Origin: Patescibacteria group bacterium
GTDB lineage: Bacteria > Patescibacteriota > Minisyncoccia > Phycocordibacterales > JACOZG01
Direction: 5' to 3'
NCBI GenBank assembly: GCA_038065495.1
Contig: JBBTQW010000002.1
Coordinates: 261,373 to 325,372 of the forward strand
Length of the DNA: 64,000 nucleotides
Each line of letters opens with the position of its first letter. Positions within the stretch are counted from its first letter, which is position 1. A model generated the notes under the pieces. The model did not search any database. It was given only the letters and a program-made list of their open reading frames with translations, and was not told where the DNA came from. The position numbers and the translations under genes were made by a program. Of the stretch, positions 8,534 through 57,732 are shown piece after piece.

Positions 8534-8535
8534 TA

Positions 8536-22375: not shown

Positions 22376-22387
22376 GTCGCAGAAAGT

Positions 22388-37715: not shown

Positions 37716-37745
37716 ACTAATTTAGAGTTTAGTTAGTTAATTTCT

Positions 37746-38207
37746 CTACTTCACTTCTATCAAGAAAGTGGCTGCCCCAGTTTGCTTAGTCAGATTAGTC
37801 GCCGAAGCTTTTATCAAGTATTTGCCGGCAGTTTTATAAGTGTGATTAAAAGTCACCAATTGCTCGTGCTGGCCGGATAAATGTGACGGCGTAAGAGTGA
37901 AGTTGGCCAAGCCATCGCCCCAGTCCAGGCGATAAGTCATCGGCGCGTCTTGTTGCTCGGTGGCTACCAGCGTCCACTGGCCATTCTCACCCACTGCAAT
38001 TGTCTCCGGACCAGTAATAGAACTAACAATGGGGCCAAGAATTAGCGCACTAGCCGTAACAGCCGGCTTCTGACTCTGCCGGGCGACGATGAGCTGGAGA
38101 ATCGCTAAGATCTGCTCGCGTGGCGTGCTGGCGGCACTGGTAAGAACTGGCACGATTACTGACGCCATCACTAGCGTCAGTAAGAATATTTTTAATTTTT
38201 TAGTCAT
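37746..38207 (-). CDS. Small secreted protein with a PKD domain.
   Basis: Signal peptide, YRLDWGDGLANFT...FNHTYKTAGKYLIKASATN, 153 aa. Confidence 0.65.
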   Translation of the reverse strand: MTKKLKIFLLTLVMASVIVPVLTSAASTPREQILAILQLIVARQSQKPAVTASALILGPIVSSITGPETIAVGENGQWTLVATEQQDAPMTYRLDWGDGLANFTLTPSHLSGQHEQLVTFNHTYKTAGKYLIKASATNLTKQTGAATFLIEVK

Positions 38208-38256
38208 ATCTGCCTATTATAACAGAACAACCGAAATATTTTCTAGTTTAACTTTA

Positions 38257-39714
38257 CTAACGTACATTCACACTCAAGCTCGTCCGTGCAGTAAGGCCGG
38301 CGCTATCGGTAACAGTGAAAACTGGTGAGAACGTGCCAGCGCGAGTGTAGTTGTGAGTAAAGGTCGCACTTTGAGTAAACATGGCACTCCGCGCCACCGA
38401 GGCCGAGCTAACGCTGGAGCTATCGCCCCAGTCTACCGTGTAAGTAAGCGCGCTATTTTCCAGATCAGTAGCACTAACCGTCCAAGTGCCAGTGGCGCCA
38501 AGCCCAAGAATCGTTGGCCCAGAGACAGCCGAGATTACCGGTGGCTGATTGGTCTGATTAGCCGTCGTCAAGCGGATCGCTCCGGAGCTCGCCTTGGCCA
38601 AGACCTGGGGCATGGGATTAGGCAAGAGACAACCGCCATAGCATGGCGTGCGGTCAAAGAGCGCAACTTCTATGAGATACTCGCCTGGTCTAACGGTGTC
38701 ACACATGTCGCCCCAGCAGCCGGTGCTTGGCACAGTGATCGTCCAGCTACCATTGCGCGTAAACTCGCCAGCGGCAAAGCGCTTGAGATTAACATTAGTC
38801 GAGCCGAGCAAGTTAAGTTGTAATACAGCGCCAGTTGGGATCTCGCCAGCAATCTGCCAAGTAATCGTCTGACTAGAACCAGCTGCCCAAGAATTGCCAC
38901 CGGTTGGCGCGAGCACCTGCATCGTGGGATTAGGCAAGCTGGTGCCAACTCTAATGTTTAATCTTGAGCTATCGCTTTTCCCAGTCTGATCCGTGACGGT
39001 AAAAATAGCAGTATAAGTGCCGGGATTATTGTAGGTGTGAGTGAAAGTCGCGGTCTGACTCACGCGATCATTCTCATTATTACTCTTCAGCACATTAGCG
39101 GCAGAAATGGTGTCGCCCCAGTCCACACGGTAAGTGAGCGAACTCTTAGCTGGCGCGGTCGCGCGGATTGTCCAAGTGCCAGTCACGCCCGGATTGAGAT
39201 TATTGGGACCAGAAACACTCTGGATGACCGGTGTGCGGTTGTTGCTATTTGTCACGCAAGGGTAGAGCGCTTGCAACTTGGCGCGAGTGAGTGGGCCCAC
39301 GTAGCCAGTCTGGATAATCCCCGACTTGATCTGAAAGTGGATCACGGCCGAAGCGGTAGCCTCACCGAAAACATTTTTATCATCACCAGCAAACTCAAAG
39401 CCAGAAGCGGTGAGCGCCGCGTGCAGATCAACTACGTCCTGGCCGCGTGCGCCAACGCCCAGATTGCGCTCAAAGCGCGAGCAAGATTTTTTATCTTTAT
39501 CATCATTCTTGTCGCTATTCTTAACATCACTCTTATCGATCATCATCGAAGAACTGCGCCACCAACCCCAGCGCGACAAGAGATCCCGCAACACTTGGAA
39601 GCGTGGTGAAGACTTATCGTCGTTATTATCGTTATTTTCTGCCAGCGCTGGTGTAATGAGAAAACTAAAGAGCATCACGCTTAGCAAACCTAAGACGAAA
39701 ATTCGTCGATTCAT
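38257..39714 (-). CDS. Secreted protein with a PG_binding_1-like domain and two PKD domains.
   Basis: Likely start MNRRIFVLGLLSVMLFSFLITPALA. GQDVVDLHAALTASGFEF...FGEATASAVIHFQ. YRVDWGDT...FTHTYNNPGTYTAIFTVTD and YTVDWGDSS...FTHNYTRAGTFSPVFTVTD. Confidence 0.7.
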   Translation of the reverse strand: MNRRIFVLGLLSVMLFSFLITPALAENNDNNDDKSSPRFQVLRDLLSRWGWWRSSSMMIDKSDVKNSDKNDDKDKKSCSRFERNLGVGARGQDVVDLHAALTASGFEFAGDDKNVFGEATASAVIHFQIKSGIIQTGYVGPLTRAKLQALYPCVTNSNNRTPVIQSVSGPNNLNPGVTGTWTIRATAPAKSSLTYRVDWGDTISAANVLKSNNENDRVSQTATFTHTYNNPGTYTAIFTVTDQTGKSDSSRLNIRVGTSLPNPTMQVLAPTGGNSWAAGSSQTITWQIAGEIPTGAVLQLNLLGSTNVNLKRFAAGEFTRNGSWTITVPSTGCWGDMCDTVRPGEYLIEVALFDRTPCYGGCLLPNPMPQVLAKASSGAIRLTTANQTNQPPVISAVSGPTILGLGATGTWTVSATDLENSALTYTVDWGDSSSVSSASVARSAMFTQSATFTHNYTRAGTFSPVFTVTDSAGLTARTSLSVNVR

Positions 39715-39832
39715 TTTATTGTTTCTCATATCAATATTGTAAGTTGGTTTAGTAATTTGTTTGTTTTCTATCATCTTTATTACTGACGAGCAAGACGAGA
39801 AAAGGTTACAGTTAGCGAACTGGAGTTTTAGA

Positions 39833-41196: not shown

Positions 41197-42114
41197 TCAA
41201 GACTCCAGAAAAACCGGCTGTAGTGGCTGGTTTTTATTTTTGTCACTAATTTCAAAAACGATTGTGCCAGTTTGATTAGTCTGCAAAGTTTTGATATTTA
41301 AATTCTCGAAAGTGGCGAGAGTGGCTGGATAAGGATGGCCGTAGCGATTATCCGTGCCGACGGAAATTACAGCGTAACTTGGTGAGACTTTTTGCACAAA
41401 GTTTCTGCCCGAAGAAGTTTTGGAACCATGGTGGCCAACTTTGAGAATTATAGCTTCTAGTGATTGCTTATTTTCACTTTCATTTGCGCTGGCGATTAAT
41501 TTGTCTTCCAGATCAGTTTCCATATCGCCCGTGAGCATCGCCAACCCGCGGCCGTTCACAGTCAGCCTAGCCACGACCATGGAGTCGTGAATCTCTTTGG
41601 CACTGCGCCCACGCCAATCCTCGAACGGCGCCAGAATTTCTAAAGCTGCCCCACGCGCCAGACTAATTTTCTCACCACGGAACGCCGGGATAATTGGAAT
41701 TTTCTTTTCTGCCAGCAAGCGATGCCATTCGGCATAAATCGCACTGCTGTAGACGGCACCGGCTTCCATCACCGCGCCCACTTCGTACCGGTTTAGAATT
41801 TCCACCAAGCCCGCGATATGATCCGCGTGCGGATGCGAGACGATTAGCAAATCAAGTGACCGATCAGAGACGGGCATCAACGCTGGTAATCTGGCTAAGA
41901 TTTTCTGATCTGGTCCGCCGTCAATCAAGATCTGATGACCAACCGAATCCTGAATAAAAATTGCATCGCCCTGGCCGATGTCGAGCATCGCGAGCGTCAA
42001 TTTTCCGCCATGCTCGGCCAAAAAAACTGCACGCCAAACAAAAATATTAGCCAGAAATAAAATCAAGACTATCGCCCATTTGATTTTGGTAATTTTTGTT
42101 TTACTAAAAAACAT
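41197..42114 (-). CDS. ComEC C-terminal metallo-beta-lactamase domain protein (separate ORF).
   Basis: N-terminal TM helix, then LDIGQGDAIFIQ...LLIVSHPHADHIAGL (MBL HxHxDH). 305 aa. Confidence 0.75.
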   Translation of the reverse strand: MFFSKTKITKIKWAIVLILFLANIFVWRAVFLAEHGGKLTLAMLDIGQGDAIFIQDSVGHQILIDGGPDQKILARLPALMPVSDRSLDLLIVSHPHADHIAGLVEILNRYEVGAVMEAGAVYSSAIYAEWHRLLAEKKIPIIPAFRGEKISLARGAALEILAPFEDWRGRSAKEIHDSMVVARLTVNGRGLAMLTGDMETDLEDKLIASANESENKQSLEAIILKVGHHGSKTSSGRNFVQKVSPSYAVISVGTDNRYGHPYPATLATFENLNIKTLQTNQTGTIVFEISDKNKNQPLQPVFLES

Positions 42115-42145
42115 TTGACAAATTATAGCATCAGTAATAAGCTGG

Positions 42146-42312
42146 GTCCGACTGGCTGGGAGAAATCAAGTAAGTTTAACCTCCTTTCAGCCCTTGGTTT
42201 CTCACTTCGGTTCTCGCCCCCCGTCGGCGAGGATAGGTGAGGTCCAAACAGCCAGTCGGTGAGCTTGCGAAAGTTGTCTCCGGACAATCGTAACAAGCTC
42301 ATTTTTTTATAA
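42146..42312 (+). ncRNA. Candidate structured small RNA (~165 nt) antisense-oriented between the two comEC ORFs.
   Basis: Possible promoter: TTGACA at 42116..42121, 17-nt spacer, TAAGCT. An 11-bp perfect long-range stem (42148..42158 with 42249..42259) encloses nested helices (gagaaa/uuucuc, a CUUCGG tetraloop, cucgcc/ggcgag). It ends with a 7-bp hairpin (42261..42300) plus a U7 run. Confidence 0.4.
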
Positions 42313-42325
42313 AATAATTTTGTTC

Positions 42326-43789
42326 TTACTTCTTCTGACGATGGAAATAGTAATAAAATATATAAACCAGAACAGTTAACCAAAGTGGAAAGTAAGCAAT
42401 ATTAACAGAAGCAAACGGAATCTGAGCGGCAAATTTCGCTATTAGCAAATCATAACTAAGTAGTAAATAAGCGAGATAAGTGAATGGCGGGAACGGGAGC
42501 AAGAAAACCACAAAGCCGAGTAGCATGGTGAGTGGCACAAAACCCAAAACTAATAAATTAACCGGCAAAGCGATGAGCGAGAGATTGCCCATCTTGTACA
42601 AGATCCACGGTAGAACAGCTAACTGCGCAGAAAGGGTTGTAGTTGTCGTCTCGCGCAAACCAAATCTCTCGGGTAAAAATGCTAAATATTTTTTGATTAG
42701 CGGCGGTCCGGCGATCACACCAAGAGTGGCGAGGAAGGAAAGTTGGAAGCTGATGTCGGAAATTAAAATTTTCGGCTGGAAGAGGATCATCACAAAGGCG
42801 GCAAGGAAGAGCGCATCGAGTGACTGATAAACGCGACCAGTCGCTCGCGCGAGCAAGGCCACCAGGGCCATGATCGCCGCCCGCACGGCCGTGCTACTCG
42901 CGCCCGTGGCGAGCGTGAAGAGGATCACGCTCGCCCCGCCGGCTAGGATGCCGGCGAGCGGCGGCAAAAAGCTCAAGGCTTTGGCCGTCGCCTCGGCGGC
43001 AATGGTAATGTTGTAGCCGGATAACACAATCAAGTGCGACAAGCCAACAGTGCGGAAGCGTTCGCCCCAGTCCTCGCTCAAGCCTTTCGCCCCAATCGCA
43101 ATGCCAGCGAGGAGCGCGCTCTGCGGCTCGGGCAAACTGGACCCGAGCCGCCGCAAAAATAACTTTTTGAAGCCAAAAAGTTTGGCGCGCGCGCTCACCA
43201 CCCAGCTTTCATCCATGCCAATTTTTTCTATCTTGGGGTTACTGATGAGATAATAAATATCGTCTTTGGCCAGATAATTCTGATAATCAAAGGTTCGGCC
43301 CGCGTCGGTCTCAAAGTTTTCTGGTGCTTCCAGCTTGCCACTCACGCGCAAGCGCTCGCCATAAGCATGGCTCGGATATTTCCCGGCTGACAAAATAATT
43401 TTGCCGCCGGATTTCTTGTTTATTTCATCTGGCAAATCTGGTGAGAAAATTAGCCGCAAGCTGCTCTCGCGCTCGTCCGGCTCGCCCACCACCGTGCCAG
43501 TCAATTCTATTTTTTCACCAATAAACTGATCTAGATATTTCTCTGTTGGACCCAACGCCCGCGTGCCCCACATAGCACTGAGCGCAAAAATTAGCAAAAC
43601 AAAACTGACTAACTTAATTAAATTATTATTTTTCCCAGATTTTCTATACAACCAAAAAACTAAAAATAAAATGCTAGAAATTATTACTAGCAAAAATAAA
43701 ACTGTGAAATCAAAACGCACGAGCGTGCCCGCGCCAATGCCTACAAAAAAGCTCGCAAAAAATAAACTACGCCAGTTCATTCCCGCCAT
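42326..43789 (-). CDS. comEC: ComEC/Rec2 DNA-uptake channel (DUF4131 plus competence domain). No MBL domain in this ORF.
   Basis: Polytopic membrane protein. LSHLIVLSGYNITIAA matches the ComEC SHLLAISGLH motif. 487 aa. Confidence 0.75.
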   Translation of the reverse strand: MAGMNWRSLFFASFFVGIGAGTLVRFDFTVLFLLVIISSILFLVFWLYRKSGKNNNLIKLVSFVLLIFALSAMWGTRALGPTEKYLDQFIGEKIELTGTVVGEPDERESSLRLIFSPDLPDEINKKSGGKIILSAGKYPSHAYGERLRVSGKLEAPENFETDAGRTFDYQNYLAKDDIYYLISNPKIEKIGMDESWVVSARAKLFGFKKLFLRRLGSSLPEPQSALLAGIAIGAKGLSEDWGERFRTVGLSHLIVLSGYNITIAAEATAKALSFLPPLAGILAGGASVILFTLATGASSTAVRAAIMALVALLARATGRVYQSLDALFLAAFVMILFQPKILISDISFQLSFLATLGVIAGPPLIKKYLAFLPERFGLRETTTTTLSAQLAVLPWILYKMGNLSLIALPVNLLVLGFVPLTMLLGFVVFLLPFPPFTYLAYLLLSYDLLIAKFAAQIPFASVNIAYFPLWLTVLVYIFYYYFHRQKK

Positions 43790-48644: not shown

Positions 48645-48687
48645 TCTGTTAATTTAACCAGAATTATAGCAGATTTAGAATTTTAAG

Positions 48688-48730
48688 ATAAAAAAATGAC
48701 CCTTAGTCTGCCGGAGCAAACCAAGGGTCA
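48688..48730 (-). terminator. Intrinsic terminator at the end of the pilus region.
   Basis: tgaccctt...aagggtca 8-bp stem plus a U-run on the minus strand. Confidence 0.6.
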
Positions 48731-48751: not shown

Positions 48752-49192
48752 TCATTTGGGTTTAGAGCCAGAGCGCTTGAACTTGCGGGAGAAGACACGG
48801 CCCCCGGCAGCCCATGAGCACGGATCCTCGACGGAGTCGGTACGAACGCCCCAACCGTCGTCGAACTGATAAACGCCCAAGGCACGGAGCACGCCATCTT
48901 TGTCCTCAACGTAGAAAATGTTGGCAGCACCGTTGCGAACCAGCTTCTTGTTGTAGCGAATATTGTAGAGCACTACTCCAAGAGTTGTCGGCTCTGGCTG
49001 ACAGTGCTTGGCGATTGCCTGATCATTCATCGGCTGTCCCAGCTCGCGCGAGTGGAGCAGAATTTTCTCCTCGACCACCTCCATTGAGCCGAAATACTCG
49101 AGAAAGTCGCGGCTAACTCTAGTAATCGGATTTGGGTCGGGAGCAAAAACCTCTCGCGCCAAACCAAGCGACCCCTGTGATTTCTTAGCCAT
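48752..49192 (-). CDS. Hypothetical 146-aa protein, GC-rich, with its own strong RBS.
   Basis: AAGGGG 8 nt before the ATG at 49192 (MAKKSQ...). No recognisable domain. The ORF track gives 164 aa from an upstream ATG. Confidence 0.5.
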   Translation of the reverse strand: MAKKSQGSLGLAREVFAPDPNPITRVSRDFLEYFGSMEVVEEKILLHSRELGQPMNDQAIAKHCQPEPTTLGVVLYNIRYNKKLVRNGAANIFYVEDKDGVLRALGVYQFDDGWGVRTDSVEDPCSWAAGGRVFSRKFKRSGSKPK

Positions 49193-49284
49193 TTTCTGGC
49201 CCCTTTCTATATATTTTATATTTTGAAGACCTTGTTTCGAACGCAACCCACACCCTAGTAAGAAAAACAGAAACTGTCAAGCCC

Positions 49285-50742
49285 TCACAACTCGCGCCAA
49301 GAGATTGTCTGATACTGATCGGAAGTAAGGGGAAAAGAGGGTGGCGGGCCGTAGAGTAGATTGGCATCGTAGATGATTGTGCGCGTGGCGTAGCCGGTGC
49401 CGTCGGTGTAGGCAAAGCCGTAACGCTGATTGGTAGCGATCATGCCCACCAAGCGGAGCGAAGTGCGCGAATTATTCGTACAAGATGAGCCGTAATAATA
49501 ACGGCCAACAAAGCCGTTCTTGGCCACCAGCGCGGCGTCGAGCTCTAGATCATCAGCACTATTCTTGCCGACCAAGATATTATTCTGCGCGATAAGTGAT
49601 AGGACGTCCGTGCCATTGTAATTGGTGTAACTCAAATCGTTATTTACTATGATGTTCGTATTAGTTGAGGAATTCTCGGGGAATTTGCCGGAGGCGATCG
49701 TTAAACGCGCGCTGTTAATCGTGCCCTCCACCCACACATGATCTTCGAGAAAGATTAAACCATTAGCGGGGAAAGCGTAATTCTGGAGGAAGGTGCGCGT
49801 ACTGATACTCCACGTGCCCCAGCCGGTCTGGTTCTGGCTGTTACTGCAACCGGAGCCGGCGCTGGAAAGTGTGTTCACCCTGTATAAGTCAAAAGTGTCA
49901 TTAGTTTTGAGAATAACTTGATAACCTTGCGCGCCGGAGGAGGCGAAGTAGCGACCGCTAGTCTGCGCTTGCGTCTTGATATTCGAGAGATCAGCGGTAA
50001 AGCCATTGAAGTCGACAGCCGGGACGGGAAACTGCCGACCAGCCTCGAAGATGTCGGCGCGGTTGGGCACCGCGCTTGGCGGCGCTTCTAAGGCCCGGAA
50101 AGTGTCAGTAATACCGCTACCGGGTGGTGCATTCACGTGAGTGTGCACGCCAAATTCGACAGCACCACTGTGGTCAGGATCATCGTAGCTCGCTACCGCG
50201 CTAGTGACAATATTGTGGACGAGACCGTCGAAGCGGATACCGGCATTGGAGTGGATGGGTCCGAAAACTTCCGTTCCGGCGCCAAAGCGCATATTGGAAT
50301 TAGCAACGAAAGCGTACTTGGCCAGCGAGGGAATGGCGAACTTGGCCTCGATCTTTCTGCTCAAACTGGCGTCACTAGCTACTTTGCCTTCGGAAACAAC
50401 CGTAACAATCGTTGAACCCACGATGGGTGGCGTGATGGTGAGTGTGTAAGTGCCGAGAACCGTGCCGTTCTTATCGGTATAATTATGGACATAGGGGCCC
50501 GCCGCGCCGGTGCCGTCCTGATAATCCTGGGCCGCATGCGCCAAGTGCCAGCGATAATACTCAATCCCCGCCTCCGCGATCTGGAAGGCTTGCTCGCGCG
50601 CCGTAGTCTGCCGGGCTGCGCGATAATTGCTCGCGCCCCAAGAGATCAAGCCGCCGAGAATAACTACACCAACAGAGCCAAAGACGAGCGCTTGAATCAA
50701 GAGGTAGCCAGACTTTTTATTTTTTTTATTTTTTATTTTCAC
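49285..50742 (-). CDS. PilX-like minor pilin or pseudopilin (485 aa).
   Basis: KKSGYLLIQALVFGSVGVVILGGLISWG is a prepilin-like N-terminus with Q at +5. AREQAFQIAEAGIEYY resembles the PilX N-domain. Large beta-rich C-terminal domain. Confidence 0.55.
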   Translation of the reverse strand: MKIKNKKNKKSGYLLIQALVFGSVGVVILGGLISWGASNYRAARQTTAREQAFQIAEAGIEYYRWHLAHAAQDYQDGTGAAGPYVHNYTDKNGTVLGTYTLTITPPIVGSTIVTVVSEGKVASDASLSRKIEAKFAIPSLAKYAFVANSNMRFGAGTEVFGPIHSNAGIRFDGLVHNIVTSAVASYDDPDHSGAVEFGVHTHVNAPPGSGITDTFRALEAPPSAVPNRADIFEAGRQFPVPAVDFNGFTADLSNIKTQAQTSGRYFASSGAQGYQVILKTNDTFDLYRVNTLSSAGSGCSNSQNQTGWGTWSISTRTFLQNYAFPANGLIFLEDHVWVEGTINSARLTIASGKFPENSSTNTNIIVNNDLSYTNYNGTDVLSLIAQNNILVGKNSADDLELDAALVAKNGFVGRYYYGSSCTNNSRTSLRLVGMIATNQRYGFAYTDGTGYATRTIIYDANLLYGPPPSFPLTSDQYQTISWREL

Positions 50743-50759
50743 AGTTTTTTTAAATTATC

Positions 50760-51383
50760 TCACAGATTATCTTTGAGACTTCTGATTGCCACCTGACTCT
50801 CATAAGTCGTGGTCACTGGCGCACGGTTGGGATCAGCTTCGATACTAAACTGAACTTTGACTAATCTGACATTTGGTAAATTAATTGGTAGCGTGAGTGC
50901 CGTGCTCGTGCCAGCATAATTCTTATCGAAATAAGTGAAAATTATGCTATTACTGTTTACCAAGTTTGGCACGAAGTTGCTGACCTGCTCGTTCGCGTCT
51001 AGATAAGTCAGCGGACTGCCAGTTGGTTTGATAATTCCTCGCCGCAAAATATTACCACTCAAGAAATAGCGCAAACGCTCGTGCAGGCCATCGCCATCAA
51101 TGTCGCTGTAAAAAGTTAATTTATCTTTATCAGCGAGTGCAATCGCAAAGGCGCCAGTGTCGGAAGGCGCAGCTTGCCTCAACTCGGCCACCAATCTCTT
51201 CAGAGCAATTCTGGCATCTTGTTCGGCTTGGATAGAGTTAGTGAGAAAACTATTCTGCCGCCAAATATCAACTTGGAAAGTCGCCAGCACCACGCTGATC
51301 AAGCCCAGAATCGCCACCACAATCAGAATCTCAACCAAACTAAAACCTTTTTGCTTATTTTTTAATAAAAATATTTTAGACAT
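50760..51383 (-). CDS. Type IV pilin-like protein (prepilin-type N-terminal cleavage/methylation domain).
   Basis: KGFSLVEILIVVAILGLISVV is the canonical G/F-x-x-x-E class III signal. 207 aa. Confidence 0.75.
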   Translation of the reverse strand: MSKIFLLKNKQKGFSLVEILIVVAILGLISVVLATFQVDIWRQNSFLTNSIQAEQDARIALKRLVAELRQAAPSDTGAFAIALADKDKLTFYSDIDGDGLHERLRYFLSGNILRRGIIKPTGSPLTYLDANEQVSNFVPNLVNSNSIIFTYFDKNYAGTSTALTLPINLPNVRLVKVQFSIEADPNRAPVTTTYESQVAIRSLKDNL

Positions 51384-51384
51384 A

Positions 51385-53208
51385 TTATGGCGACATTAGA
51401 ACTTCGAAAGTTTGCCATGGCTGTGTGGCAGAAACAGAATTATTTTGGTAATTCTGATAACCGGTCGCCGTCACGTTGAGATTATAATCACTCGCGCTGG
51501 TGAGATTATTAAAGAAAACTTGTCCGGACGGTAGGCAACCCGAGCCGTAGACCAAGCTAACATCAGACAAGACGGGCGTGAAATTCGGATCAATCGTGGA
51601 GAAATAGGCGCGATAACGGATAAACTCGTCGCTATTGTGAATCGCATTGATTGGATCGCCAGAGACAGTGTAGAACGTGTTGCTCGTTCCATCCGGGCCG
51701 AGATAATTCCACGTGCTGGTGGCATTATCATTGCCCGTCGCGATTTGGAATCGGAGAGTTGTGGAAGCGCTCTGGGAGGCCGGTGTCCAGTTGATATTAT
51801 AGAACGCGCTGGCCGTGCTAGAGCCGGTGTCGAAAATTGAGGAAGTAAGCACACCGCTGGCCGAATAATTGCCGAAAACGGAGCGCAACTGCGCCTGACC
51901 GAGCACGCCAGCCGTGTCCACATTGCCGTCATCACTGAAGTATTGATTAGCGCTCACAAAGTCCACTTGCCCCGCGCCGCCCGACCAATCTGTCTGGCGG
52001 AAGAAGCCACGATTGGTCACGAGATTCTGACTAAAGCCGCCCCGCGAGAGCGTGACGCTAGCGTCGTCGATGGGCAAGAGACTGGCGGCATCTTTCACCG
52101 TCACCAGCAAGGCATTGGGATTGGCTGGCGCAGTAACCAGCAAGACATTCTGATCCGTATTGGGCGCAAGTGAGAAAGGCAAGAGTGGCACCGAACCAGC
52201 GAGATCCGTGCCGGCGTCACTCACACTCAAGCTGTAAGTGTCCCATTCTAGATTAGCGATAGTTTTGTGCCCAGCGCCATCCAGCGTGTGATTCTGATTA
52301 TATTTCAAAACATTGGGACTCGTGCCAAGTAATTTATTCCCCTGTAGATTAAAGCCGGCACTCGGCGTGCTCACGCAAGCACTATTGATACCAGAGAAAT
52401 TGATCTGACTGGTGCGATCAATCGAGAGCGTCACTTGTGTAACCTGACCAACAGAAACGGTGGAGTGCGGATTGACCGGATTGGGATTGCCCACCGCGCC
52501 GGCTGGATAAGTTCTATCTGTGGAATAACCGCTTTTGCTAACCGTGATCTCGTAAGCAAAGTTCCCGGGTGGCACATCAACTAGTTGGAGCATGCCGGCA
52601 TTGTTCGTCACATCATCAATACTAATCGCCGGATTAACTAAGTTGTTCGCAATGTGCACGTTTGCATTAGCCACTGGCTGACCATTGGCGTCTAGCACAC
52701 GCACAAAGAGCGCGCCGTTGCCACTGGAAGTTTCTAAACTCTTCGGTGCTACCGTAGCGACAAAAGCGAGCGGTTGCGCTAGTTTGCAGGCTGAACAATT
52801 CATGTCCAATTGCACGAGCTTATAATCCGCTGGACTCAAATCGTTTGGCGCACCGCCGATGGTGCCGTCGAAAATGTCGTCCACGTTACGCACAGTCGTG
52901 GTGGAAGTGAAAGTGATGCCAGCGTCCGTGACGTTCTGCACGCTCTGGATCAAGCCGTTCGGGATGCCGCCCACCTCGCCCACTTGGGCATAAGGCATAT
53001 TGCGGATAATCTCTAATTGTTGATTGGCCAGTAGAGTGGCCGCTGTCCGAGCACGCGACGCTTTGACCAGATCAGTAACCGCAAAGAAGCCCTGATAAAT
53101 CGCCAGCGCGATGACAGAAAATACAAACACGCCAACAAGTGTCTCTACCAACGTAAAGCCAGTTTTTCTATTTTTTAAATTATTTTTTTCTAAAAATTTA
53201 TTTGGCAT
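51385..53208 (-). CDS. Large type IV pilin-like protein (607 aa) with a prepilin N-terminus.
   Basis: KTGFTLVETLVGVFVFSVIALAIY, then a ~560-aa beta-rich globular region. 1 nt after pilC. Confidence 0.7.
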   Translation of the reverse strand: MPNKFLEKNNLKNRKTGFTLVETLVGVFVFSVIALAIYQGFFAVTDLVKASRARTAATLLANQQLEIIRNMPYAQVGEVGGIPNGLIQSVQNVTDAGITFTSTTTVRNVDDIFDGTIGGAPNDLSPADYKLVQLDMNCSACKLAQPLAFVATVAPKSLETSSGNGALFVRVLDANGQPVANANVHIANNLVNPAISIDDVTNNAGMLQLVDVPPGNFAYEITVSKSGYSTDRTYPAGAVGNPNPVNPHSTVSVGQVTQVTLSIDRTSQINFSGINSACVSTPSAGFNLQGNKLLGTSPNVLKYNQNHTLDGAGHKTIANLEWDTYSLSVSDAGTDLAGSVPLLPFSLAPNTDQNVLLVTAPANPNALLVTVKDAASLLPIDDASVTLSRGGFSQNLVTNRGFFRQTDWSGGAGQVDFVSANQYFSDDGNVDTAGVLGQAQLRSVFGNYSASGVLTSSIFDTGSSTASAFYNINWTPASQSASTTLRFQIATGNDNATSTWNYLGPDGTSNTFYTVSGDPINAIHNSDEFIRYRAYFSTIDPNFTPVLSDVSLVYGSGCLPSGQVFFNNLTSASDYNLNVTATGYQNYQNNSVSATQPWQTFEVLMSP

Positions 53209-53209
53209 C

Positions 53210-54439
53210 TTAAATAGTTTCGCTTAGCGAGTACATTGGTCCGAGCATGGAGATGGCGAAGAAGCCGACAAAAATACCAATCACCACCATTAGCGCTGGT
53301 TCGATAATCGTGGAGAGATTCTTAGTCGCTTGTTCCACTTCGTCTTCAAAGAACGTGGCGCCTTTCAAGAGCATTGCTGGCAAATTACCAGTTTCTTCGC
53401 CCACTTCGGCCATCTCGCCAACCAGAATAGGGAAAATATCTTCGTGACTTTTGAACACCGCTGATAATGTCCCGCCTTTCTCGACCACCACAGCCGCTTC
53501 TAGTAAAACGCTCTGATAAAACGGGTTTTGCAAAACTTTGCCAGTGATCGCCAGCGCCTCTAGCATGCTAACGCCAGATGAGATGAGTGAAGAAATCGTG
53601 CGCATCGTAACGGCCGCGTTTAGATTTTTCACGATCGTGCCGATCGCCGGTGTATGTAGCCAGATTCTGGTCAGGGATTTGTGGCCAGATTTGGTCCTGG
53701 CTAATTTGAGAAAAATCACGATAATCGCGGCTAAACTAAGCAAAAAAGAGATGGTGTAGTTAGACAAAAAATCACTAACACCAATCACGATTCTCGTTGA
53801 GAGCGGCAAATCAACGTTGAGATCACGAAACAGCGCCGTGAGTTGCGGCACGAGAAAGATCATCATCAAGATCGCAATCGCGATAATCACCACCACAATA
53901 ATCGCCGGGTAGAGCATGGCGCCTTTTACTTTGCGCTGGAGATCATAGCTCTTGGCTAACTGTTGATGTACTACTTCGAGCGCTTGCGTGAGATTCCCCG
54001 ATTCCTCGCCCGCGCCAACCATAGCGATAAAAACGGGTGGGAAAACATCGGGGAAACTAGCGAGCGAGGCCGAGAATGGCTCGCCAGAATTTACTTTTGC
54101 GCTAAGTTGCGCGATCACGCTCTTGAACTTCTCATTAGCCACTTGCCGCTCCAGAATCGCCAGAGCGCGAGAGAGTGATAAGCCCGCGCCGATCATGGCC
54201 GAGAGCGAGGAAGCGAAAACAATCTTGTCTTTAATCTTGATCCGACCAAAGGGACTGGCAAAGTGGAAGCGATGCTTCTTGCCCAGCTCGGCGACTAGTC
54301 TGGCTTGAGTGACTGTCAAACCTTCCGCATGCAGTTCGCGCGCCAGCGCGTAACGATCCGGCGCCTCACGCTCGCCGCTCATTGTGGTGCCATCAGATCG
54401 AGAAGCTTTGAAAGAATATTTCATGAAAGAATTACTCAC
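53210..54439 (-). CDS. pilC: Type IV pilus assembly platform protein PilC (GspF family).
   Basis: Two GspF-type repeats with TM helices. 409 aa. Overlaps pilB. Confidence 0.82.
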   Translation of the reverse strand: MSNSFMKYSFKASRSDGTTMSGEREAPDRYALARELHAEGLTVTQARLVAELGKKHRFHFASPFGRIKIKDKIVFASSLSAMIGAGLSLSRALAILERQVANEKFKSVIAQLSAKVNSGEPFSASLASFPDVFPPVFIAMVGAGEESGNLTQALEVVHQQLAKSYDLQRKVKGAMLYPAIIVVVIIAIAILMMIFLVPQLTALFRDLNVDLPLSTRIVIGVSDFLSNYTISFLLSLAAIIVIFLKLARTKSGHKSLTRIWLHTPAIGTIVKNLNAAVTMRTISSLISSGVSMLEALAITGKVLQNPFYQSVLLEAAVVVEKGGTLSAVFKSHEDIFPILVGEMAEVGEETGNLPAMLLKGATFFEDEVEQATKNLSTIIEPALMVVIGIFVGFFAISMLGPMYSLSETI

Positions 54440-56189
54440 TCACCACGCGCAACACTTCCTCAATGCTCGTCACGCCTTGTGCGGCTTGAAAAATGCCATC
54501 TTCCAACATCGTGAGCATTCCCTCTTTCTTGGCTTGTTCCTCAATTTGCGAAGTGGTGGCACTTTTCATTACTAGATCTTTAATCGTTGCTGACATTTTG
54601 AGAACTTCGTGGATGCCCACTCGACCACGATAAGAGTCCTCACTATTTGCTCCAGCTTTTGGTTTATAAAAAGAAATATTTTCCCACTTCGCGGCTGGCG
54701 CTACTACTTTTTCTGTTTTCAAGATTTCCAACACTCGCTCCAAATCCACTTTCTCACCCAACTTTTTCAATTCTGCACTAGATAATAAATATTTTTCTTT
54801 CGCGCCTTCTAATCTCCGCACCAATCTCTGCGCGATGATCACATTAATAGTAGAAACGAGCAAGAACGGCTCCGCGCCCATGTCCAAGAATCTTGGGATC
54901 GCACCAGCGGCGGAATTTGTGTGCAGAGTGGAAAGAACCAAGTGACCAGTCAGCGCCGCATTAATCGCCAAGCCAGCTGTTTCTTTATCTCGAATCTCGC
55001 CGACCATAATAATATCCGGATCTTGGCGCACAAGCGCTCTTAAGCCATTACCAAAAGTGAGACCAATCTCGGGCTTCACTTGCGTCTGGTTCACGCGCGG
55101 CATCTGATACTCAATCGGATCTTCGATGGTTGAGATGTTTACATCCGGCTGATTCAAGATTTCCAGAACAGTATACAAAGTAGTAGATTTACCCGAACCA
55201 GTCGGGCCAGTCACCAAGATCATGCCAGTTGCCTGTTGCGTGGCCGCTTGCACGCGCTCCAAACCCTCGCCGTGGAACCCGCCTTGCTCTAGCGATAAAC
55301 CACGCGCCGTGTCGGGCAATAAGCGCATCACGATCTTCTCGCCAAAATAGGTTGGTAAAATAGAAACGCGAAACGAGACGCCCTGACCGTCCAGTTCAAT
55401 CTTAAACCGCCCATCTTGCGGCAAGCGCTTTTCGTCTAATCTCAAGTTTGCTAAAACTTTGATCCTCGCCACCAAGGCCGGTCCAGCATTCTTGGGCAAG
55501 ACCATCGCGTCGTGGAGCAAGCCGTCTATCCGATATCTAATAATCACCTCTCTCTCAAAGTTCTCGATATGAATGTCGGAAGCTTGCTGGGTAATCGCAT
55601 GCGAGAGCAATGTATCGACAATGCGCACCACTGGCAAATCTTCGGCCAGCTTCTTGAGCTCACCTTCGCCAATTTCTTTTCCGCCATCAGTGTCGTCCAG
55701 CTTTTTTAGTTTAGCCGCTTCTTGGCCCACTAAGTCACCAAACTCGGCTTTTAAGCTTTTTTGATACTGCAAGAGCGCACTCTTGAGCGAAGCGGCGTCG
55801 GTTAATCTCGGCAAAATCTTGAGACCAGAACCTTTTTTGATAAAATCAATCGCGGTCAAGTCATCCGGGTCGAGCATCGCCACCTCCAGCGAGTCATTAT
55901 CTTTTTTCTTAAAAGCCACAATATTATGCCGCCGTGCAATTGGCTCGGGAATCGTGTACAGCACATCTTTATCTATTTTATCTTTCTTTAAATCCACAAA
56001 CGGAATGCCCAAGATGTAAGCCTTGGCACGACGAAGATCGTCTTCCGTAATCTTGCCGCTGGCGAGCAGTAGTTCTTCGAAACTTTTTTTCTCACTCTCA
56101 ACCTGTTCGGCGATATTCACCAAATCTTTCTTGCTCGCTAAACCAGAGTCGAGTAGAAAAGTTTGTAATTGTTCCGGATCAATCCACAT
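54432..56189 (-). CDS. pilB: Type IV pilus assembly ATPase PilB (GspE family).
   Basis: GILVTGPTGSGKSTTLY, an Asp box, a His box, N-terminal GSPII_E_N-like domain, and 585 aa. Confidence 0.88.
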   Translation of the reverse strand: MWIDPEQLQTFLLDSGLASKKDLVNIAEQVESEKKSFEELLLASGKITEDDLRRAKAYILGIPFVDLKKDKIDKDVLYTIPEPIARRHNIVAFKKKDNDSLEVAMLDPDDLTAIDFIKKGSGLKILPRLTDAASLKSALLQYQKSLKAEFGDLVGQEAAKLKKLDDTDGGKEIGEGELKKLAEDLPVVRIVDTLLSHAITQQASDIHIENFEREVIIRYRIDGLLHDAMVLPKNAGPALVARIKVLANLRLDEKRLPQDGRFKIELDGQGVSFRVSILPTYFGEKIVMRLLPDTARGLSLEQGGFHGEGLERVQAATQQATGMILVTGPTGSGKSTTLYTVLEILNQPDVNISTIEDPIEYQMPRVNQTQVKPEIGLTFGNGLRALVRQDPDIIMVGEIRDKETAGLAINAALTGHLVLSTLHTNSAAGAIPRFLDMGAEPFLLVSTINVIIAQRLVRRLEGAKEKYLLSSAELKKLGEKVDLERVLEILKTEKVVAPAAKWENISFYKPKAGANSEDSYRGRVGIHEVLKMSATIKDLVMKSATTSQIEEQAKKEGMLTMLEDGIFQAAQGVTSIEEVLRVVSE

Positions 56190-56198
56190 GTTCTATTA

Positions 56199-56256
56199 AT
56201 TATAGCAAAAACAAAACAAAAATCCCTGTGCTAGAAAATCTAGACAGGGATTTTTG
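56199..56256. promoter_or_regulatory. Bidirectional hairpin terminator between the tail-collar gene and pilB, plus an extended -10 (TGCTATAAT) 9 nt upstream of the pilB ATG.
   Basis: atccctgtgctaga...tctagacagggat forms a ~13-bp stem with one bulge (56222..56250), flanked by an A-run and T5. RC of 56199..56207 is TGCTATAAT. Confidence 0.5.
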
Positions 56257-56275
56257 TGGAAAGAAATAAACTTAT

Positions 56276-57400
56276 CTAATTTTTGACGCAGAAAGCAACA
56301 GAGATAGACGGTATTGGGTGACTGTGGATTGGCCGACTCAACAAACTAGTACCAAGTTCTGGACCAATAGCAAAAATGCCCTCCGCTTCGTGACTCTTGG
56401 AATAATCAGGTCCGGTTTTGGCGGTCCAATTGGTAGTGCCAGGGGCATGTGCGGAATCGGAACCAATCACAAACCGCGCGTTGAAAGAGGGATCGAGACT
56501 CCAACCAGCCGGGCAAGTGCCAGCTTTGGTCATCACCACTGAACCAGCCGGAAACGCGTCACTACCACCACCCGTCGGAGGAGTTGGGGTGCCAGAGCCG
56601 CCGCCCAAGCAATTTACTGTATTCCCATTGCTATCAGTTGTGCAAATAGAGCCACCTCTAACAGCTGCGCCGCTAACCGTCCCACCAGAACTGACATTGT
56701 TCGAAACAGTCACACTCCCACCAGAAACATTAAGATTCCCACCCACTCGCGCGGCACCAGCCACATCGAGTTTGACGCCAGAAATTGCCCCGGCACTGAC
56801 TCCAGTGCCAATACCAAGGGCACCACCGTTGATAATTACATCACGTTGGCCACCAACCGCGGCCGGAGTAAGCACCATATTGCCGCTACCGCTCGCGCGT
56901 AGGATCAAACTCGCATGATTAGCGTCACCAGCGACGCCGGAAAGAAGCCCCTTATTCTCACCAACAATACCAACATTACCGCCAGCCACGGTTAGTTTGG
57001 AATTCGGAGTATTGGTGCCGATGCCAACGTTATCGCCAATATTAAGAGGAAAAAGACTGGAGCCAGTCCGAGACCAGAAGTTTGTGCTTGGATCGCCAGA
57101 GCCCCCACCAGAACTAGGCGTGGCCCACTGCGCAAAACCAGTCACCGGATCAGCAGTCAGAAACTGCCCGGCAAGCGGCTTAAATCCATTAACGAGCAAC
57201 TCTCCCAAGAGATTCAGCCCGCCAAGCTCCAAGCGCCCAGATTTACTTTGTTGGCTACTGCTTACATTAATCGGTTCGGCGGTATTAGGACAACCCGCTC
57301 CTGGCCCAGAACAATCAGCTGGAGCATCGTTCCAAGCCGCCATCACGCTCCCGGCGAGAACTAAAGCAAAAATTGGCAAAATAATTTTTAAATATTTCAT
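56276..57400 (-). CDS. Secreted Gly-rich beta-helix-like protein with a C-terminal phage-tail-collar-like domain.
   Basis: Signal peptide MKYLKIILPIFALVLAGSVMA. Gly-rich repeats (GGNVGIVGENKG, GALGIGTGVSAG, GGNLNVSGGSV). C-terminal PAGWSLDPSFNARFVIG...RPIHSHPIPS resembles the Collar P.GW...R...H.H pattern. Confidence 0.55.
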   Translation of the reverse strand: MKYLKIILPIFALVLAGSVMAAWNDAPADCSGPGAGCPNTAEPINVSSSQQSKSGRLELGGLNLLGELLVNGFKPLAGQFLTADPVTGFAQWATPSSGGGSGDPSTNFWSRTGSSLFPLNIGDNVGIGTNTPNSKLTVAGGNVGIVGENKGLLSGVAGDANHASLILRASGSGNMVLTPAAVGGQRDVIINGGALGIGTGVSAGAISGVKLDVAGAARVGGNLNVSGGSVTVSNNVSSGGTVSGAAVRGGSICTTDSNGNTVNCLGGGSGTPTPPTGGGSDAFPAGSVVMTKAGTCPAGWSLDPSFNARFVIGSDSAHAPGTTNWTAKTGPDYSKSHEAEGIFAIGPELGTSLLSRPIHSHPIPSISVAFCVKN

Positions 57401-57420
57401 ATTTTTTTAAATAATAATTT

Positions 57421-57732
57421 TTATTGCGCTTTTAAAGATTCTAATAATTTCTCGCGGTCAGCGTCGGTTAGCTTGGTGGGTTTGCTGGACTTCAGGCCTT
57501 TTAGCAACGCCGCGCGTTCGGCTTCGGTCAACGAGGTTGGCTCGGTAGCGCGGAGTGACTGGAGTAATTGCGCGCGGCGAGCCTCTTCGGCATCTTCCTC
57601 GGAAGCAGCTGGCGCAGGCGCAGGCGCGCCGTCGCGGTAATTGGAAACATAATAAACACCGATCCACACGATTGCCGTAATGGCGGCTAATATAGCGATC
57701 ACTTTGTAAAATTTTTCGGCAGACATGCTCAA
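57421..57732 (-). CDS. Small membrane-anchored protein with a 15-aa tandem repeat (SLTEAERAALLKGLK, KLTDADREKLLESLK).
   Basis: N-terminal TM helix, a PAPAPA linker, three copies of an L-T-x-A-x-R-x-x-L-L-x-x-L-K motif. An extended -10 (TGTTACAAT, RC) sits 6 nt before the ATG. Confidence 0.5.
   Translation of the reverse strand: MSMSAEKFYKVIAILAAITAIVWIGVYYVSNYRDGAPAPAPAASEEDAEEARRAQLLQSLRATEPTSLTEAERAALLKGLKSSKPTKLTDADREKLLESLKAQ

What the first reader, a model, noticed from the sequence alone, without database searches (positions are those of the whole stretch)
48752..57732. Type IV pilus operon with three large pilin-like proteins, no canonical small major pilin, and no pilM/N/O/D/T in cis
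The operon is P(TGCTATAAT)-pilB-pilC followed by 607-aa, 207-aa and 485-aa proteins, each with a prepilin-type N-terminus (GFTLVE, GFSLVE, and a variant G-YLLIQ with a PilX-like helix). The 607-aa and 485-aa proteins are far larger than ordinary pilins and could be tip adhesins or receptor-binding pseudopilins. The cluster lies about 5 kb from comEC and recJ, which fits a DNA-uptake and attachment apparatus as proposed for episymbiotic CPR bacteria. Components elsewhere must supply the peptidase and the alignment complex.
Basis: partly seen in the sequence, partly recalled or inferred. Interest (0 to 1): 0.6.

Follow-up and report, generated by a model that had tools for sequence, protein, structure and literature searches.

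The report
Pilus operon with ComZ-like tip
This is the conserved core operon of a type IV pilus in Parcubacteria-type ultrasmall bacteria: a motor, a membrane platform and three pilin-like proteins that most likely form the pilus tip, whose cap is predicted to look like ComZ, the DNA-binding tip pilin of Thermus.

Summary
On the minus strand, a TGCTATAAT promoter 9 nt before the ATG drives pilB-pilC and then 607-, 207- and 485-aa proteins with prepilin-type N-termini. The window holds no small pilin and no pilD, pilM, pilN, pilO or pilT.

- **Conservation:** The five-gene block keeps this order in about 80 Paceibacteria species loci, out of at least 586 species with a relative.
- **Glu+5:** It is invariant in the 607- and 207-aa families. 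It is never present in the 485-aa family, which is the signature of a capping pilin such as GspK, PilX or ComGG.
- **485-aa protein:** The AlphaFold2 model has a pilin fold plus a β-solenoid. Its only strong PDB match is ComZ (E 1e-11). It is about as conserved as PilB (about 63% identity).
- **607-aa protein:** It is a modular pilin carrying a stalk of CnaB/prealbumin-like β-sandwich domains.
- **Distant relatives:** These carry pilM, pilN and pilO in the same operon.

Best reading: a motor, a platform and a three-subunit tip and priming complex, with the major pilin, the peptidase and PilMNO encoded elsewhere. Whether the tip binds DNA or host surface is unresolved. The comEC/recJ proximity is weak evidence. 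I rate it a new variant of a known kind.

The parts
56199..56207 (-). Extended -10 promoter element TGCTATAAT, 9 nt upstream of the pilB ATG. This implies a near-leaderless transcript.
   Evidence: Read directly. It follows the terminator hairpin of the upstream gene. The same TGCTATAAT motif precedes tpiA.
54432..56189 (-). pilB: assembly ATPase of the PilB/GspE family with an N-terminal MshEN domain (585 aa).
   Evidence: Pfam T2SSE E 1.6e-123 and MshEN 1.5e-13. NCBIfam type_IV_pilB scores 531 bits and gspE 521 bits, both below the equivalog cut-offs. Median 65.5% identity across related loci.
53210..54439 (-). pilC: polytopic platform protein (409 aa). It overlaps pilB by 8 nt.
   Evidence: Pfam T2SSF E 1.9e-57 with two stretches. 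NCBIfam GspF and PilC models match full-length. Gene spacing.
51385..53208 (-). 607-aa modular pilin. It has a class III signal peptide (…RKTG|FTLVE), a pilin helix and sheet (about residues 20-153), and then tandem β-sandwich domains and a jelly-roll-like module.
   Evidence: N_methyl and CarboxypepD_reg. Gly17 is nearly invariant and Glu22 invariant in 40 homologues. AF2 pLDDT 73.6. Foldseek matches B. anthracis TIE 6FWV at 5.5e-12, and PitA, SpaA and SdrD B domains. Residues 17-278 and 288-361 form the scaffold shared with the 721- and 1399-aa versions in distant lineages.
50760..51383 (-). 207-aa minor pilin (…KQKG|FSLVE), 1 nt after the 607-aa gene.
   Evidence: N_methyl E 2e-8. Gly13 and Glu18 are invariant in 40 homologues. 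Some sources label homologues PulJ or PilW. No structure was predicted for it.
49285..50742 (-). 485-aa capping pilin. Gly-1 is conserved and Glu+5 is absent (Gln, His or Ser instead). A pilin-like domain carries a large β-solenoid, as in ComZ.
   Evidence: No Pfam or NCBIfam family. AF2 pLDDT 80.6: helix 13-69, four strands 84-136, a solenoid, and a last strand 478-484. Foldseek PDB gives ComZ 6QVI at E 1e-11, with the next hit, an ice-binding protein, at E 0.08. Mean column identity is 64% in alignment A1.
48752..49192 (-). 146-aa basic hypothetical protein (pI 9.1). It lies inside the transcription unit, 92 nt after the 485-aa gene, and is specific to this lineage. Whether it belongs to the system is uncertain.
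   Evidence: NCBI names it hypothetical AAB364_02645, and it is a singleton cluster. It has no homologue in any of the related loci. It has no Pfam hit. pI.
48697..48730 (-). Intrinsic terminator (15-pair stem followed by a T-run) that ends the unit.
   Evidence: with the sequence.
56216..56257 (-). Terminator hairpin of the upstream gene (56276-57400). It marks the 5' boundary of the pil unit.
   Evidence: Fold energy -25.1 kcal/mol, z -7.3, with 0 of 200 shuffles folding as well.

Best explanation
This is the conserved core operon of a type IV pilus machine in Paceibacteria (Parcubacteria). One near-leaderless transcript encodes five core proteins: the assembly ATPase PilB, the platform PilC and three minor pilins.

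**Proposed mechanism**
1. A prepilin peptidase encoded elsewhere processes the minor pilins.
2. The three nucleate on the PilC platform as the priming complex.
3. The 485-aa protein goes in first. It lacks Glu+5 because no subunit sits above it. It caps the filament with a rigid β-solenoid, as proposed for ComZ and GspK.
4. The 207-aa and 607-aa pilins dock beneath it, their Glu+5 pairing with the N-terminus of the preceding subunit.
5. PilB then polymerises a small major pilin, encoded at another locus, beneath this complex. The trio ends up at the pilus tip.
6. The 607-aa subunit projects a stalk of Ig-like domains from that tip.

The tip is the ligand-binding end. I think the ComZ-like cap most likely captures DNA, a ligand common to all these organisms. 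The stalk may add surface adhesion.

**Shown:** gene content, operon boundaries, N-terminal signatures, conservation, synteny and the predicted folds.
**Inferred:** the order of assembly, the tip location and the ligand.
For: - **Operon anatomy.** Promoter, gene spacings of -8, 1, 1 and 17 nt, and flanking terminators.
- **Motor and platform.** PilB and PilC domain hits.
- **Glu+5 pattern.** Invariant Gly-1/Glu+5 in the 607- and 207-aa families. Gly-1 without Glu+5 in every 485-aa homologue examined. PMC12040237 states that only the capping pilin (PilX, ComGG) naturally lacks E5.
- **ComZ-like fold.** The model of the 485-aa protein has a pilin helix and sheet, then a β-solenoid, then a final strand. 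Foldseek matches ComZ along the full length at E 1e-11, ten orders of magnitude better than any other PDB chain. The runners-up are ice-binding-type solenoids. Those are what PMC6561018 reports for ComZ's solenoid, and it reports that ComZ also lacks Glu5.
- **Fixed gene block.** pilB-pilC-600aa-200aa-490aa keeps this order in 80 species loci from at least 586 species.
- **Distant relatives.** They keep the trio and add pilM, pilN and pilO in the same operon. This ties the trio to a PilMNO-type pilus machine.
- **Small pilin.** One locus (L077) has a canonical 142-aa pilin 133 nt downstream of the cap gene. Such pilins therefore exist in the clade.
- **Conservation.** The cap has median 63% identity, against PilB 65.5%, PilC 46%, Pgk 46% and RecJ 49%. 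This favours an invariant partner or ligand.
- **Literature.** Méheust 2019 reports ComEA in only 31% of CPR genomes and suggests an alternative DNA-binding mechanism.
Against: - No sequence-level link to ComZ. A profile of the family finds nothing relevant in PDB sequences.
- Foldseek TM-scores to ComZ are low (0.24-0.28, rmsd about 15 Å). The match rests on local 3Di similarity of a predicted model.
- Canonical tip complexes have four subunits. Only three are present here.
- The 207-aa protein was not modelled, so its GspI- or GspJ-likeness is untested.
- The mature cap is acidic (pI 5.7).
- DNA binding by ComZ itself has only in-vitro support.
- In Saccharibacteria the essential role of type IV pili is unrelated to ComEC (PMC10633639), and mutants of one pilus system keep wild-type competence (PMC11623550).
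- The 80 loci were chosen by similarity to the cap protein, which inflates its apparent conservation somewhat.
- The major pilin, PilD and PilMNO of this genome were not seen.
Confidence: 0.7

Rival explanations
1. It is a host-attachment pilus only. The trio forms an adhesin tip that binds the surface of the host cell, as shown for PilX2 of Saccharibacteria, and has no role in DNA uptake.
For: The C-terminal part of the 607-aa protein resembles the CnaB/prealbumin stalks of Gram-positive adhesins and sortase pilins. Distant lineages swap its central module for a β-propeller or extend it to 1399 aa, or give the cap Big_2/PA14 domains. This is the pattern expected of ligand-binding modules. Saccharibacterial PilX2, a large pilin with a non-canonical signal peptide, promotes host binding, and its mutants keep competence.
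Against: Within Paceibacteria the cap is about as conserved as the ATPase, and the 607-aa protein about as conserved as glycolytic enzymes. That is hard to reconcile with recognising diverse host surfaces. The only strong structural match of the cap is a competence pilin.
Confidence: 0.3
2. The operon is self-sufficient. The 207-aa or the 607-aa protein is the major subunit, giving an unusual thick or decorated filament with no separate small pilin.
For: No small pilin lies in the window or within ±10 kb in 78 of 80 related loci. In comG-type operons the gene after the platform gene is the major pilin. Both proteins have canonical Gly-1 and Glu+5.
Against: A 590-residue mature subunit with five extra domains is sterically unlikely to form the repeating core. 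Small canonical pilins exist in the clade, one of them directly after the operon (L077). Pilin families are widespread in CPR genomes (PMC6744442). Sources label 207-aa homologues PulJ or PilW, which are minor-pilin names.
Confidence: 0.1
3. It is a type II secretion-like pseudopilus that pushes proteins through the wall, not a surface pilus.
For: PilB and PilC score almost as well against GspE and GspF models as against PilB and PilC models. The minor pilins resemble GspI, GspJ and GspK in logic.
Against: No secretin or GspC, GspL or GspM lies in the window. CPR bacteria lack PilQ and an outer membrane (PMC6744442). Relatives carry PilM, PilN and PilO. A 600-aa stalked subunit makes no sense inside a periplasmic piston.
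Confidence: 0.05
4. The β-solenoid cap is an enzyme displayed at the pilus tip, either a glycan depolymerase or a nuclease. Its conservation would then reflect catalysis.
For: β-solenoids are usually hydrolytic enzymes, as PMC6561018 notes. The family has an invariant cluster of His, Asp and Glu residues: H66, H69, D73, D76, H86, D188, D190, H191, E196, H200 and H202. This suggests a metal site.
Against: There is no significant match to tailspike or depolymerase structures in PDB or in viral models. No known catalytic motif was recognised, and there is no Pfam family.
Confidence: 0.1

Closest known systems
ComZ with PilA2, the competence pilins of Thermus thermophilus HB27 (PDB 6QVI, 6QVF; PMC6561018)
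   Same: About 500 residues. A pilin-like domain has a large β-solenoid placed before the last strand. There is no Glu5. The gene lies next to a small pseudopilin-like partner gene. A tip location is inferred. The solenoid resembles ice-binding proteins.
   Different: No detectable sequence similarity. The organism is a monoderm CPR bacterium rather than a diderm. The gene sits with pilB and pilC rather than in a pilA1-4 locus. It has a His/Asp-rich invariant cluster. DNA binding is untested.
Core minor-pilin tip complexes: GspH-I-J-K of type II secretion, FimU/FimT-PilV-PilW-PilX of type IVa pili, and ComGD-GE-GF-GG of Com pili
   Same: Adjacent genes. One cap subunit lacks Glu5 and the others keep it. 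The proposed role is priming assembly and then sitting at the tip.
   Different: Three members rather than four in cis. Two of them are very large modular proteins. The set is encoded directly behind pilB-pilC without the major pilin. Conservation is far higher than is usual for pilins.
Modular minor pilins PilB (vWA module) and PilC (lectin module), with PilA, of Streptococcus sanguinis type IV pili (PMC8179133, PMC9934059)
   Same: A monoderm organism. A small pilin plus two pilins of about 50-60 kDa, each with a functional module grafted onto a pilin module.
   Different: The grafted modules differ: a β-solenoid, and a CnaB-like stalk with a jelly roll. I took the comparison from the abstracts of those papers and my own knowledge. 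It was not tested here.
PilX1 and PilX2 of Nanosynbacter lyticus TM7x (Saccharibacteria; PMC11623550)
   Same: Patescibacterial large pilins with a non-canonical signal peptide and C-terminal accessory domains, proposed to sit at the tip.
   Different: Those carry a jelly-roll or a seven-bladed propeller, lie in loci with small major pilins, PilD, PilT and PilMNO, and are poorly conserved outside Saccharibacteria. Homology to the proteins here was not tested.

Membership tests
Type IV pilus (type IVa-like) assembly system | PilB/GspE-family hexameric assembly ATPase | tested here: met
   T2SSE E 1.6e-123 plus MshEN. Full-length match to TIGR02538 at 531 bits, below the 675-bit equivalog cut-off.
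Type IV pilus (type IVa-like) assembly system | PilC/GspF platform protein | tested here: met
   T2SSF E 1.9e-57 with two repeats. Full-length GspF and PilC model matches.
Type IV pilus (type IVa-like) assembly system | Subunits with a class III signal peptide (Gly-1, hydrophobic helix, Glu+5) | tested here: met
   N_methyl hits. Gly-1 and Glu+5 are invariant in orthologues of the 607- and 207-aa proteins.
Type IV pilus (type IVa-like) assembly system | Prepilin peptidase (PilD, Peptidase_A24) | not testable with these tools
   Absent from the 64-kb window. The rest of the 443-kb contig and genome could not be fetched. PMC6744442 reports PilD as widespread in CPR.
Type IV pilus (type IVa-like) assembly system | A small, abundant major pilin | tested here: not met
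   None in the window, and only 2 of 80 related loci have one within ±10 kb. 'Not met' applies to the locus, not to the genome.
Type IV pilus (type IVa-like) assembly system | PilM-PilN-PilO alignment complex | tested here: inconclusive
   Absent from the window. Present inside or directly after the homologous operon in two distant lineages: L084 and L086 both have PilM_2, L084 has PilO at 22 bits and a weak PilN hit, and L086 has a weak PilO hit.
Core minor-pilin tip complex (GspK/PilX/ComGG-capped) | One subunit that naturally lacks Glu+5 (the cap) | tested here: met
   The 485-aa family has Gln, His or Ser at +5 and never Glu, in the 40 aligned homologues and wherever the motif was listed among the 83 locus homologues. 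The criterion comes from PMC12040237.
Core minor-pilin tip complex (GspK/PilX/ComGG-capped) | Four cognate subunits (H/I/J/K equivalents) | tested here: not met
   Only three pilin-like genes lie in the operon here and in all related loci.
Core minor-pilin tip complex (GspK/PilX/ComGG-capped) | Physical assembly into a helical stack at the filament tip | not testable with these tools
   No multimer prediction or experiment was available.
ComZ-type competence pilin | Pilin-like domain with a large β-solenoid inserted before the last strand | tested here: met
   AF2 secondary-structure order. Foldseek gives ComZ at E 1e-11 and probability 1.00 over about 570 columns, but with TM of only 0.24-0.28.
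ComZ-type competence pilin | Sequence homology to ComZ | tested here: not met
   The family profile against all PDB sequences gives no ComZ hit even at E 10.
ComZ-type competence pilin | Binds DNA and is required for transformation | not testable with these tools
   This needs biochemistry or genetics.
Com pilus (comG-type) of monoderms | ComGA/ComGB with the major pilin ComGC as the next gene, and no PilMNO | tested here: not met
   PilB carries the long N-terminal region of type IVa PilB. It scores 251 bits against ComGA, below the 300-bit cut-off. No small pilin follows pilC. Relatives have PilMNO in cis.
Type II secretion system | Secretin GspD and GspC/L/M in a diderm envelope | tested here: not met
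   None in the window. PMC6744442 reports no PilQ-type secretin in CPR.

The most novel reading that the evidence does not exclude
The ultra-conserved 485-aa cap is the missing extracellular DNA receptor of Parcubacteria-type CPR bacteria. Most CPR genomes lack ComEA. On this reading a ComZ-like β-solenoid at the pilus tip, possibly using its invariant His/Asp metal site, captures or nicks environmental or host DNA. It passes the DNA to the split ComEC. Pilus-tip DNA scavenging would then be a core, vertically inherited trait of the class.
Probability: 0.25. Interest if true: 0.75.

Novelty: new variant of a known kind. Interest (0 to 1): 0.5.

Why it matters
Type IV pili are thought to be central to how CPR/Patescibacteria attach to hosts and acquire DNA and nucleotides. 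Outside Saccharibacteria, nothing is known about their tips.

- **A defined target.** This analysis picks out a fixed five-gene module present in hundreds of Paceibacteria species. Two of its three pilin-like proteins are annotated only as 'hypothetical' or 'carboxypeptidase regulatory-like'.
- **A concrete prediction.** The cap is predicted to be a structural counterpart of ComZ, the Thermus tip pilin that binds DNA in vitro.
- **A tractable experiment.** A soluble, highly conserved 51-kDa protein can be made and tested for DNA, glycan or metal binding without culturing the organism.
- **A possible explanation.** It may explain how CPR genomes without ComEA bind DNA.
- **An unusual pilin.** It is also a case of a pilin evolving as slowly as the motor ATPase.

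Tried and rejected
- **Fetching the source genome.** Exact look-ups of window proteins to reach the rest of the contig failed. Only accession numbers and names were recovered. pilD, pilM, pilN, pilO, pilT and short pilins could therefore not be searched genome-wide.
- **Sequence profiles against PDB.** The profile for the cap found nothing relevant. The profiles for the other two matched only N-terminal pilin helices.
- **NCBIfam.** It matched only the N-terminal 20-60 residues of the 607- and 207-aa proteins (GspI, GspJ, PilV and ComGE/GF models at E about 1e-3). No assignment to a particular minor-pilin class is possible.
- **Pfam on all family members.** PilX_N appeared in only 4 of 40 cap homologues, and DUF1494 in 11 of 40 homologues of the 207-aa protein. 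Both results are uninformative.
- **Viral structure library.** The search for tailspike-like enzymes found nothing at E ≤ 0.001.
- **comEC/recJ synteny.** I considered it as functional evidence and rejected it as strong evidence. The whole region is collinear in this clade, including nusA, ppa, tig, tpiA and pgk, and the linkage is lost in distant lineages.
- **The two upstream genes.** I considered them (57421-57732, a bitopic coiled-coil protein, and 56276-57400, a secreted Gly-rich protein) as hidden PilN/PilO-like parts. I rejected this because a strong terminator separates them from pilB, they have no PilN or PilO hits, and they are not conserved at this position.
- **Literature.** A search for any link between ComZ and CPR/Patescibacteria found none in the held library.

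Full report
**What is there**

The ORF list and Pfam place five core genes on the minus strand:
- pilB at 54432-56189 (T2SSE E 1.6e-123 and MshEN)
- pilC at 53210-54439 (T2SSF E 1.9e-57)
- a 607-aa protein at 51385-53208 (N_methyl and CarboxypepD_reg)
- a 207-aa protein at 50760-51383 (N_methyl)
- a 485-aa protein at 49285-50742 with no Pfam or NCBIfam family

The N-termini read …RKTG|FTLVE, …KQKG|FSLVE and …KKSG|YLLIQ.

A six-frame scan of all 64 kb for a prepilin motif followed by a hydrophobic stretch returns these three N-termini. Its only other hit is internal to a glycosyltransferase. Pfam scans of every large ORF in the window found ribosomal and translation genes, a long glycosyltransferase cluster, a VirD4-like ATPase, PKD/PG-binding proteins, a split ComEC, RecJ, TpiA, Pgk and NusA. 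They found no prepilin peptidase, no PilM, PilN or PilO, and no second ATPase.

The window comes from an NCBI 'Patescibacteria group bacterium' MAG. The contig is 443 kb and the proteins are MEK7650743-49. In that record the 607-aa protein is named 'carboxypeptidase regulatory-like domain-containing protein' and the 485-aa protein 'hypothetical'.

**Operon boundaries**

The gene upstream of pilB (56276-57400) ends in a strong hairpin followed by a T-run. It folds at -25.1 kcal/mol, z -7.3. TGCTATAAT follows at 56207-56199, only 9 nt before the pilB ATG, so the transcript is nearly leaderless.

The spacings are pilB/pilC -8 nt, pilC/607 1 nt, 607/207 1 nt and 207/485 17 nt. After a 92-nt gap comes a 146-aa basic ORF (48752-49192). 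A 15-pair terminator at 48730-48697 follows, and then the same TGCTATAAT motif precedes tpiA.

The 146-aa ORF is a singleton and is absent from every relative.

**Conservation**

Each of the three pilin-like proteins heads a large family. All named members are Patescibacteria or Parcubacteria lineages:
- The 607-aa protein has more than 2000 hits at about 50% identity over the full length.
- The 485-aa protein has more than 4000 hits at about 65% identity, none with a Pfam domain and all labelled 'hypothetical'.
- The 207-aa protein has homologues at about 45-55% identity.

A scan of one genome per species found relatives of the 485-aa protein in at least 586 species. In the 80 best loci the order pilB-pilC-600aa-200aa-490aa is essentially invariant. 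It is embedded in the collinear stretch nusA | … | tpiA-pgk-HIT-recJ-rnhA-comEC(N)-comEC(MBL)-M50.

Median identity to the window protein across those loci:

| Protein | Median identity |
|---|---|
| 485-aa cap | 63% |
| PilB | 65.5% |
| NusA | 62% |
| 607-aa | 47.5% |
| 207-aa | 42.6% |
| PilC | 45.7% |
| Pgk | 46% |
| RecJ | 49% |

The loci were chosen by similarity to the 485-aa protein, which flatters it somewhat. Even so, a pilin-like protein about as conserved as the motor ATPase is unusual.

At 50% clustering the family has 1451 representatives at E ≤ 0.001 and 356 at E ≤ 1e-30.

- In 40 aligned homologues of the 607-aa protein, Glu+5 is invariant and Gly-1 nearly so.
- In the 207-aa family both are invariant.
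- In the 485-aa family Gly-1 is nearly invariant, but position +5 is Gln, His or Ser and never Glu.

PMC12040237 states that all pilins except the capping pilin need E5, and that PilX and ComGG are recognised as caps by lacking it. The pattern here is therefore one cap and two ordinary subunits.

**Structure of the 485-aa protein**

AlphaFold2 with 40 homologues gives pLDDT 80.6. The model has a long helix (13-69), four strands (84-136), a long run of short parallel strands, and a final strand (478-484) with invariant residues.

Foldseek against the PDB gives ComZ of Thermus thermophilus (6QVI) at E 1e-11 and probability 1.00, aligned over the whole length. The next hit is an ice-binding protein at E 0.08. 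Thermus PilA2 and S. sanguinis PilA appear far down the list.

PMC6561018 describes ComZ as follows:
- a GspK-like pilin domain with a β-solenoid inserted before the last strand
- a solenoid that resembles ice-binding proteins
- Gly instead of Glu at position 5
- tight binding to the adjacent small pilin PilA2
- DNA binding in vitro
- a proposed role as cap of the competence pilus

The match has limits. TM-scores are 0.24-0.28. A profile of the family finds no ComZ at the sequence level. Only 4 of 40 members give weak PilX_N hits. No tailspike-like enzyme matches were found in PDB or in viral models.

The family also has an invariant His/Asp/Glu cluster and two invariant cysteines. I cannot explain these; a metal site is possible.

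**Structure of the 607-aa protein**

AlphaFold2 gives pLDDT 73.6. The model has a pilin helix and sheet (about 20-153) followed by a chain of β-sandwich domains and a less confident jelly-roll-like module.

Foldseek matches B. anthracis TIE (5.5e-12), PitA, SpaA, BcpA and SdrD B domains. These are the CnaB/prealbumin stalks of Gram-positive surface proteins.

Residues 17-278 and 288-361 form the scaffold shared with much larger or differently built versions in distant lineages. One is 721 aa with a β-propeller insert and another is 1399 aa. It is therefore a modular pilin whose outer modules are exchangeable over long evolutionary distances.

**Distant relatives link the trio to a PilMNO machine**

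- **L084:** pilB-pilC-pilM-pilN-pilO-(93 aa)-1399aa-198aa-cap.
- **L086:** pilB-pilC-721aa-192aa-cap-pilM-(176 aa)-pilO.
- **L087:** the trio stands without pilB and pilC, and the cap is 1445 aa with Big_2/PA14 domains.

None of these loci has tpiA, pgk, recJ or comEC next to it. The proximity to comEC and recJ is therefore clade-level collinearity rather than functional clustering.

Within ±10 kb of the operon, only 2 of 80 loci have an extra small pilin. One of them is a canonical 142-aa pilin 133 nt after the cap gene (L077).

**Interpretation**

The best-supported reading is that the operon encodes the motor, the platform and a three-subunit priming and tip complex. The cap is ComZ-like and the 607-aa subunit carries a stalk. 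The major pilin, the peptidase and, in this clade, PilMNO are encoded elsewhere.

Published surveys report PilB, PilT, PilC, PilM, PilN, PilO and PilD as widespread in CPR and PilQ as absent. They report ComEC without the MBL fusion, as seen here. They also report ComEA in only 31% of CPR genomes (PMC6744442).

The ligand of the tip is open:
- **For DNA:** the ComZ-like fold and the extreme conservation favour a universal ligand.
- **For host surface:** the stalk and the module swapping point this way, as does work in Saccharibacteria. There a large pilin promotes host binding, and the essential role of type IV pili is unrelated to ComEC.

The two roles are not exclusive.

**Novelty**

Type IV pili in CPR, modular minor pilins and ComZ are each known. 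I could not find in the held literature a fixed pilB-pilC-trio module across Paceibacteria whose cap is a predicted ComZ counterpart. I rate it a new variant of a known kind, of moderate interest. Its main value is a concrete, expressible target for testing how these uncultured bacteria bind DNA or hosts.

Noticed in passing
window 41197-43789 (-): ComEC is split into two genes: DUF4131+Competence (42326-43789) and a separate MBL-fold protein (41197-42114). The same split occurs in about 36 related loci. It agrees with the published absence of the ComEC-MBL fusion in CPR.
   Followed up: partly
window 20624-25156 (-): A VirD4/TraG/TrwB-like coupling ATPase (566 aa) lies next to a 922-aa ORF with no Pfam hit. 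This may be part of the Patescibacterial type IV secretion machinery.
   Followed up: no
window 48752-49192 (-): A 146-aa basic protein (pI 9.1, AAB364_02645) sits between the cap gene and the operon terminator. It is a singleton with no homologue in any related locus and no family hit.
   Followed up: partly
window 56199-56207 and about 48661-48669 (-): The same extended -10 element TGCTATAAT sits 9 nt before the pilB ATG and about 18 nt before the tpiA ATG. This suggests leaderless or very short-leader mRNAs. Most genes in the operon have no obvious Shine-Dalgarno sequence.
   Followed up: partly
window 56276-57732 (-): Two genes lie upstream of pilB: a 374-aa secreted Gly-rich protein and a 103-aa membrane-anchored protein with a repeated L..L..LK motif. 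Relatives carry variable secreted proteins here, some with a Peptidase_S74 (tail-fibre chaperone) domain.
   Followed up: partly
window 49285-50742 (-), protein residues 62-202: The cap family has an invariant cluster: YYRWHLAH, D73, D76, H86, HSN at 164-166, DDPDH at 187-191, E196 and VHTH at 199-202. It also has two invariant cysteines (C299, C421). A metal site is possible. No known motif was recognised.
   Followed up: no
window 36288-39774 (-): Three adjacent secreted proteins carry PG_binding_1, PKD and TIG/Big domains, between the ribosomal protein genes and the M50 protease gene.
   Followed up: no
window 1594-20627 (-): A cluster of about 19 kb, all on one strand, encodes glycosyltransferases (GT1/GT4, GT2, GT9), methyltransferases, asparagine synthase, GtrA and a polysaccharide deacetylase. 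It is presumably for a surface glycan.
   Followed up: no
L087 13913-18340: In a distant lineage the pilin trio lies without pilB and pilC, next to ten tandem genes with the T4SS_pilin domain. There the cap homologue is 1445 aa with Big_2, PA14 and DUF4215 domains.
   Followed up: no
L004-L083 record titles: Many species-representative MAGs titled 'uncultured Candidatus Saccharibacteria bacterium' carry the same synteny as loci titled Paceibacterota, Zambryskibacteria, Vogelbacteria or Nomurabacteria. The Saccharibacteria label is probably generic or wrong.
   Followed up: no
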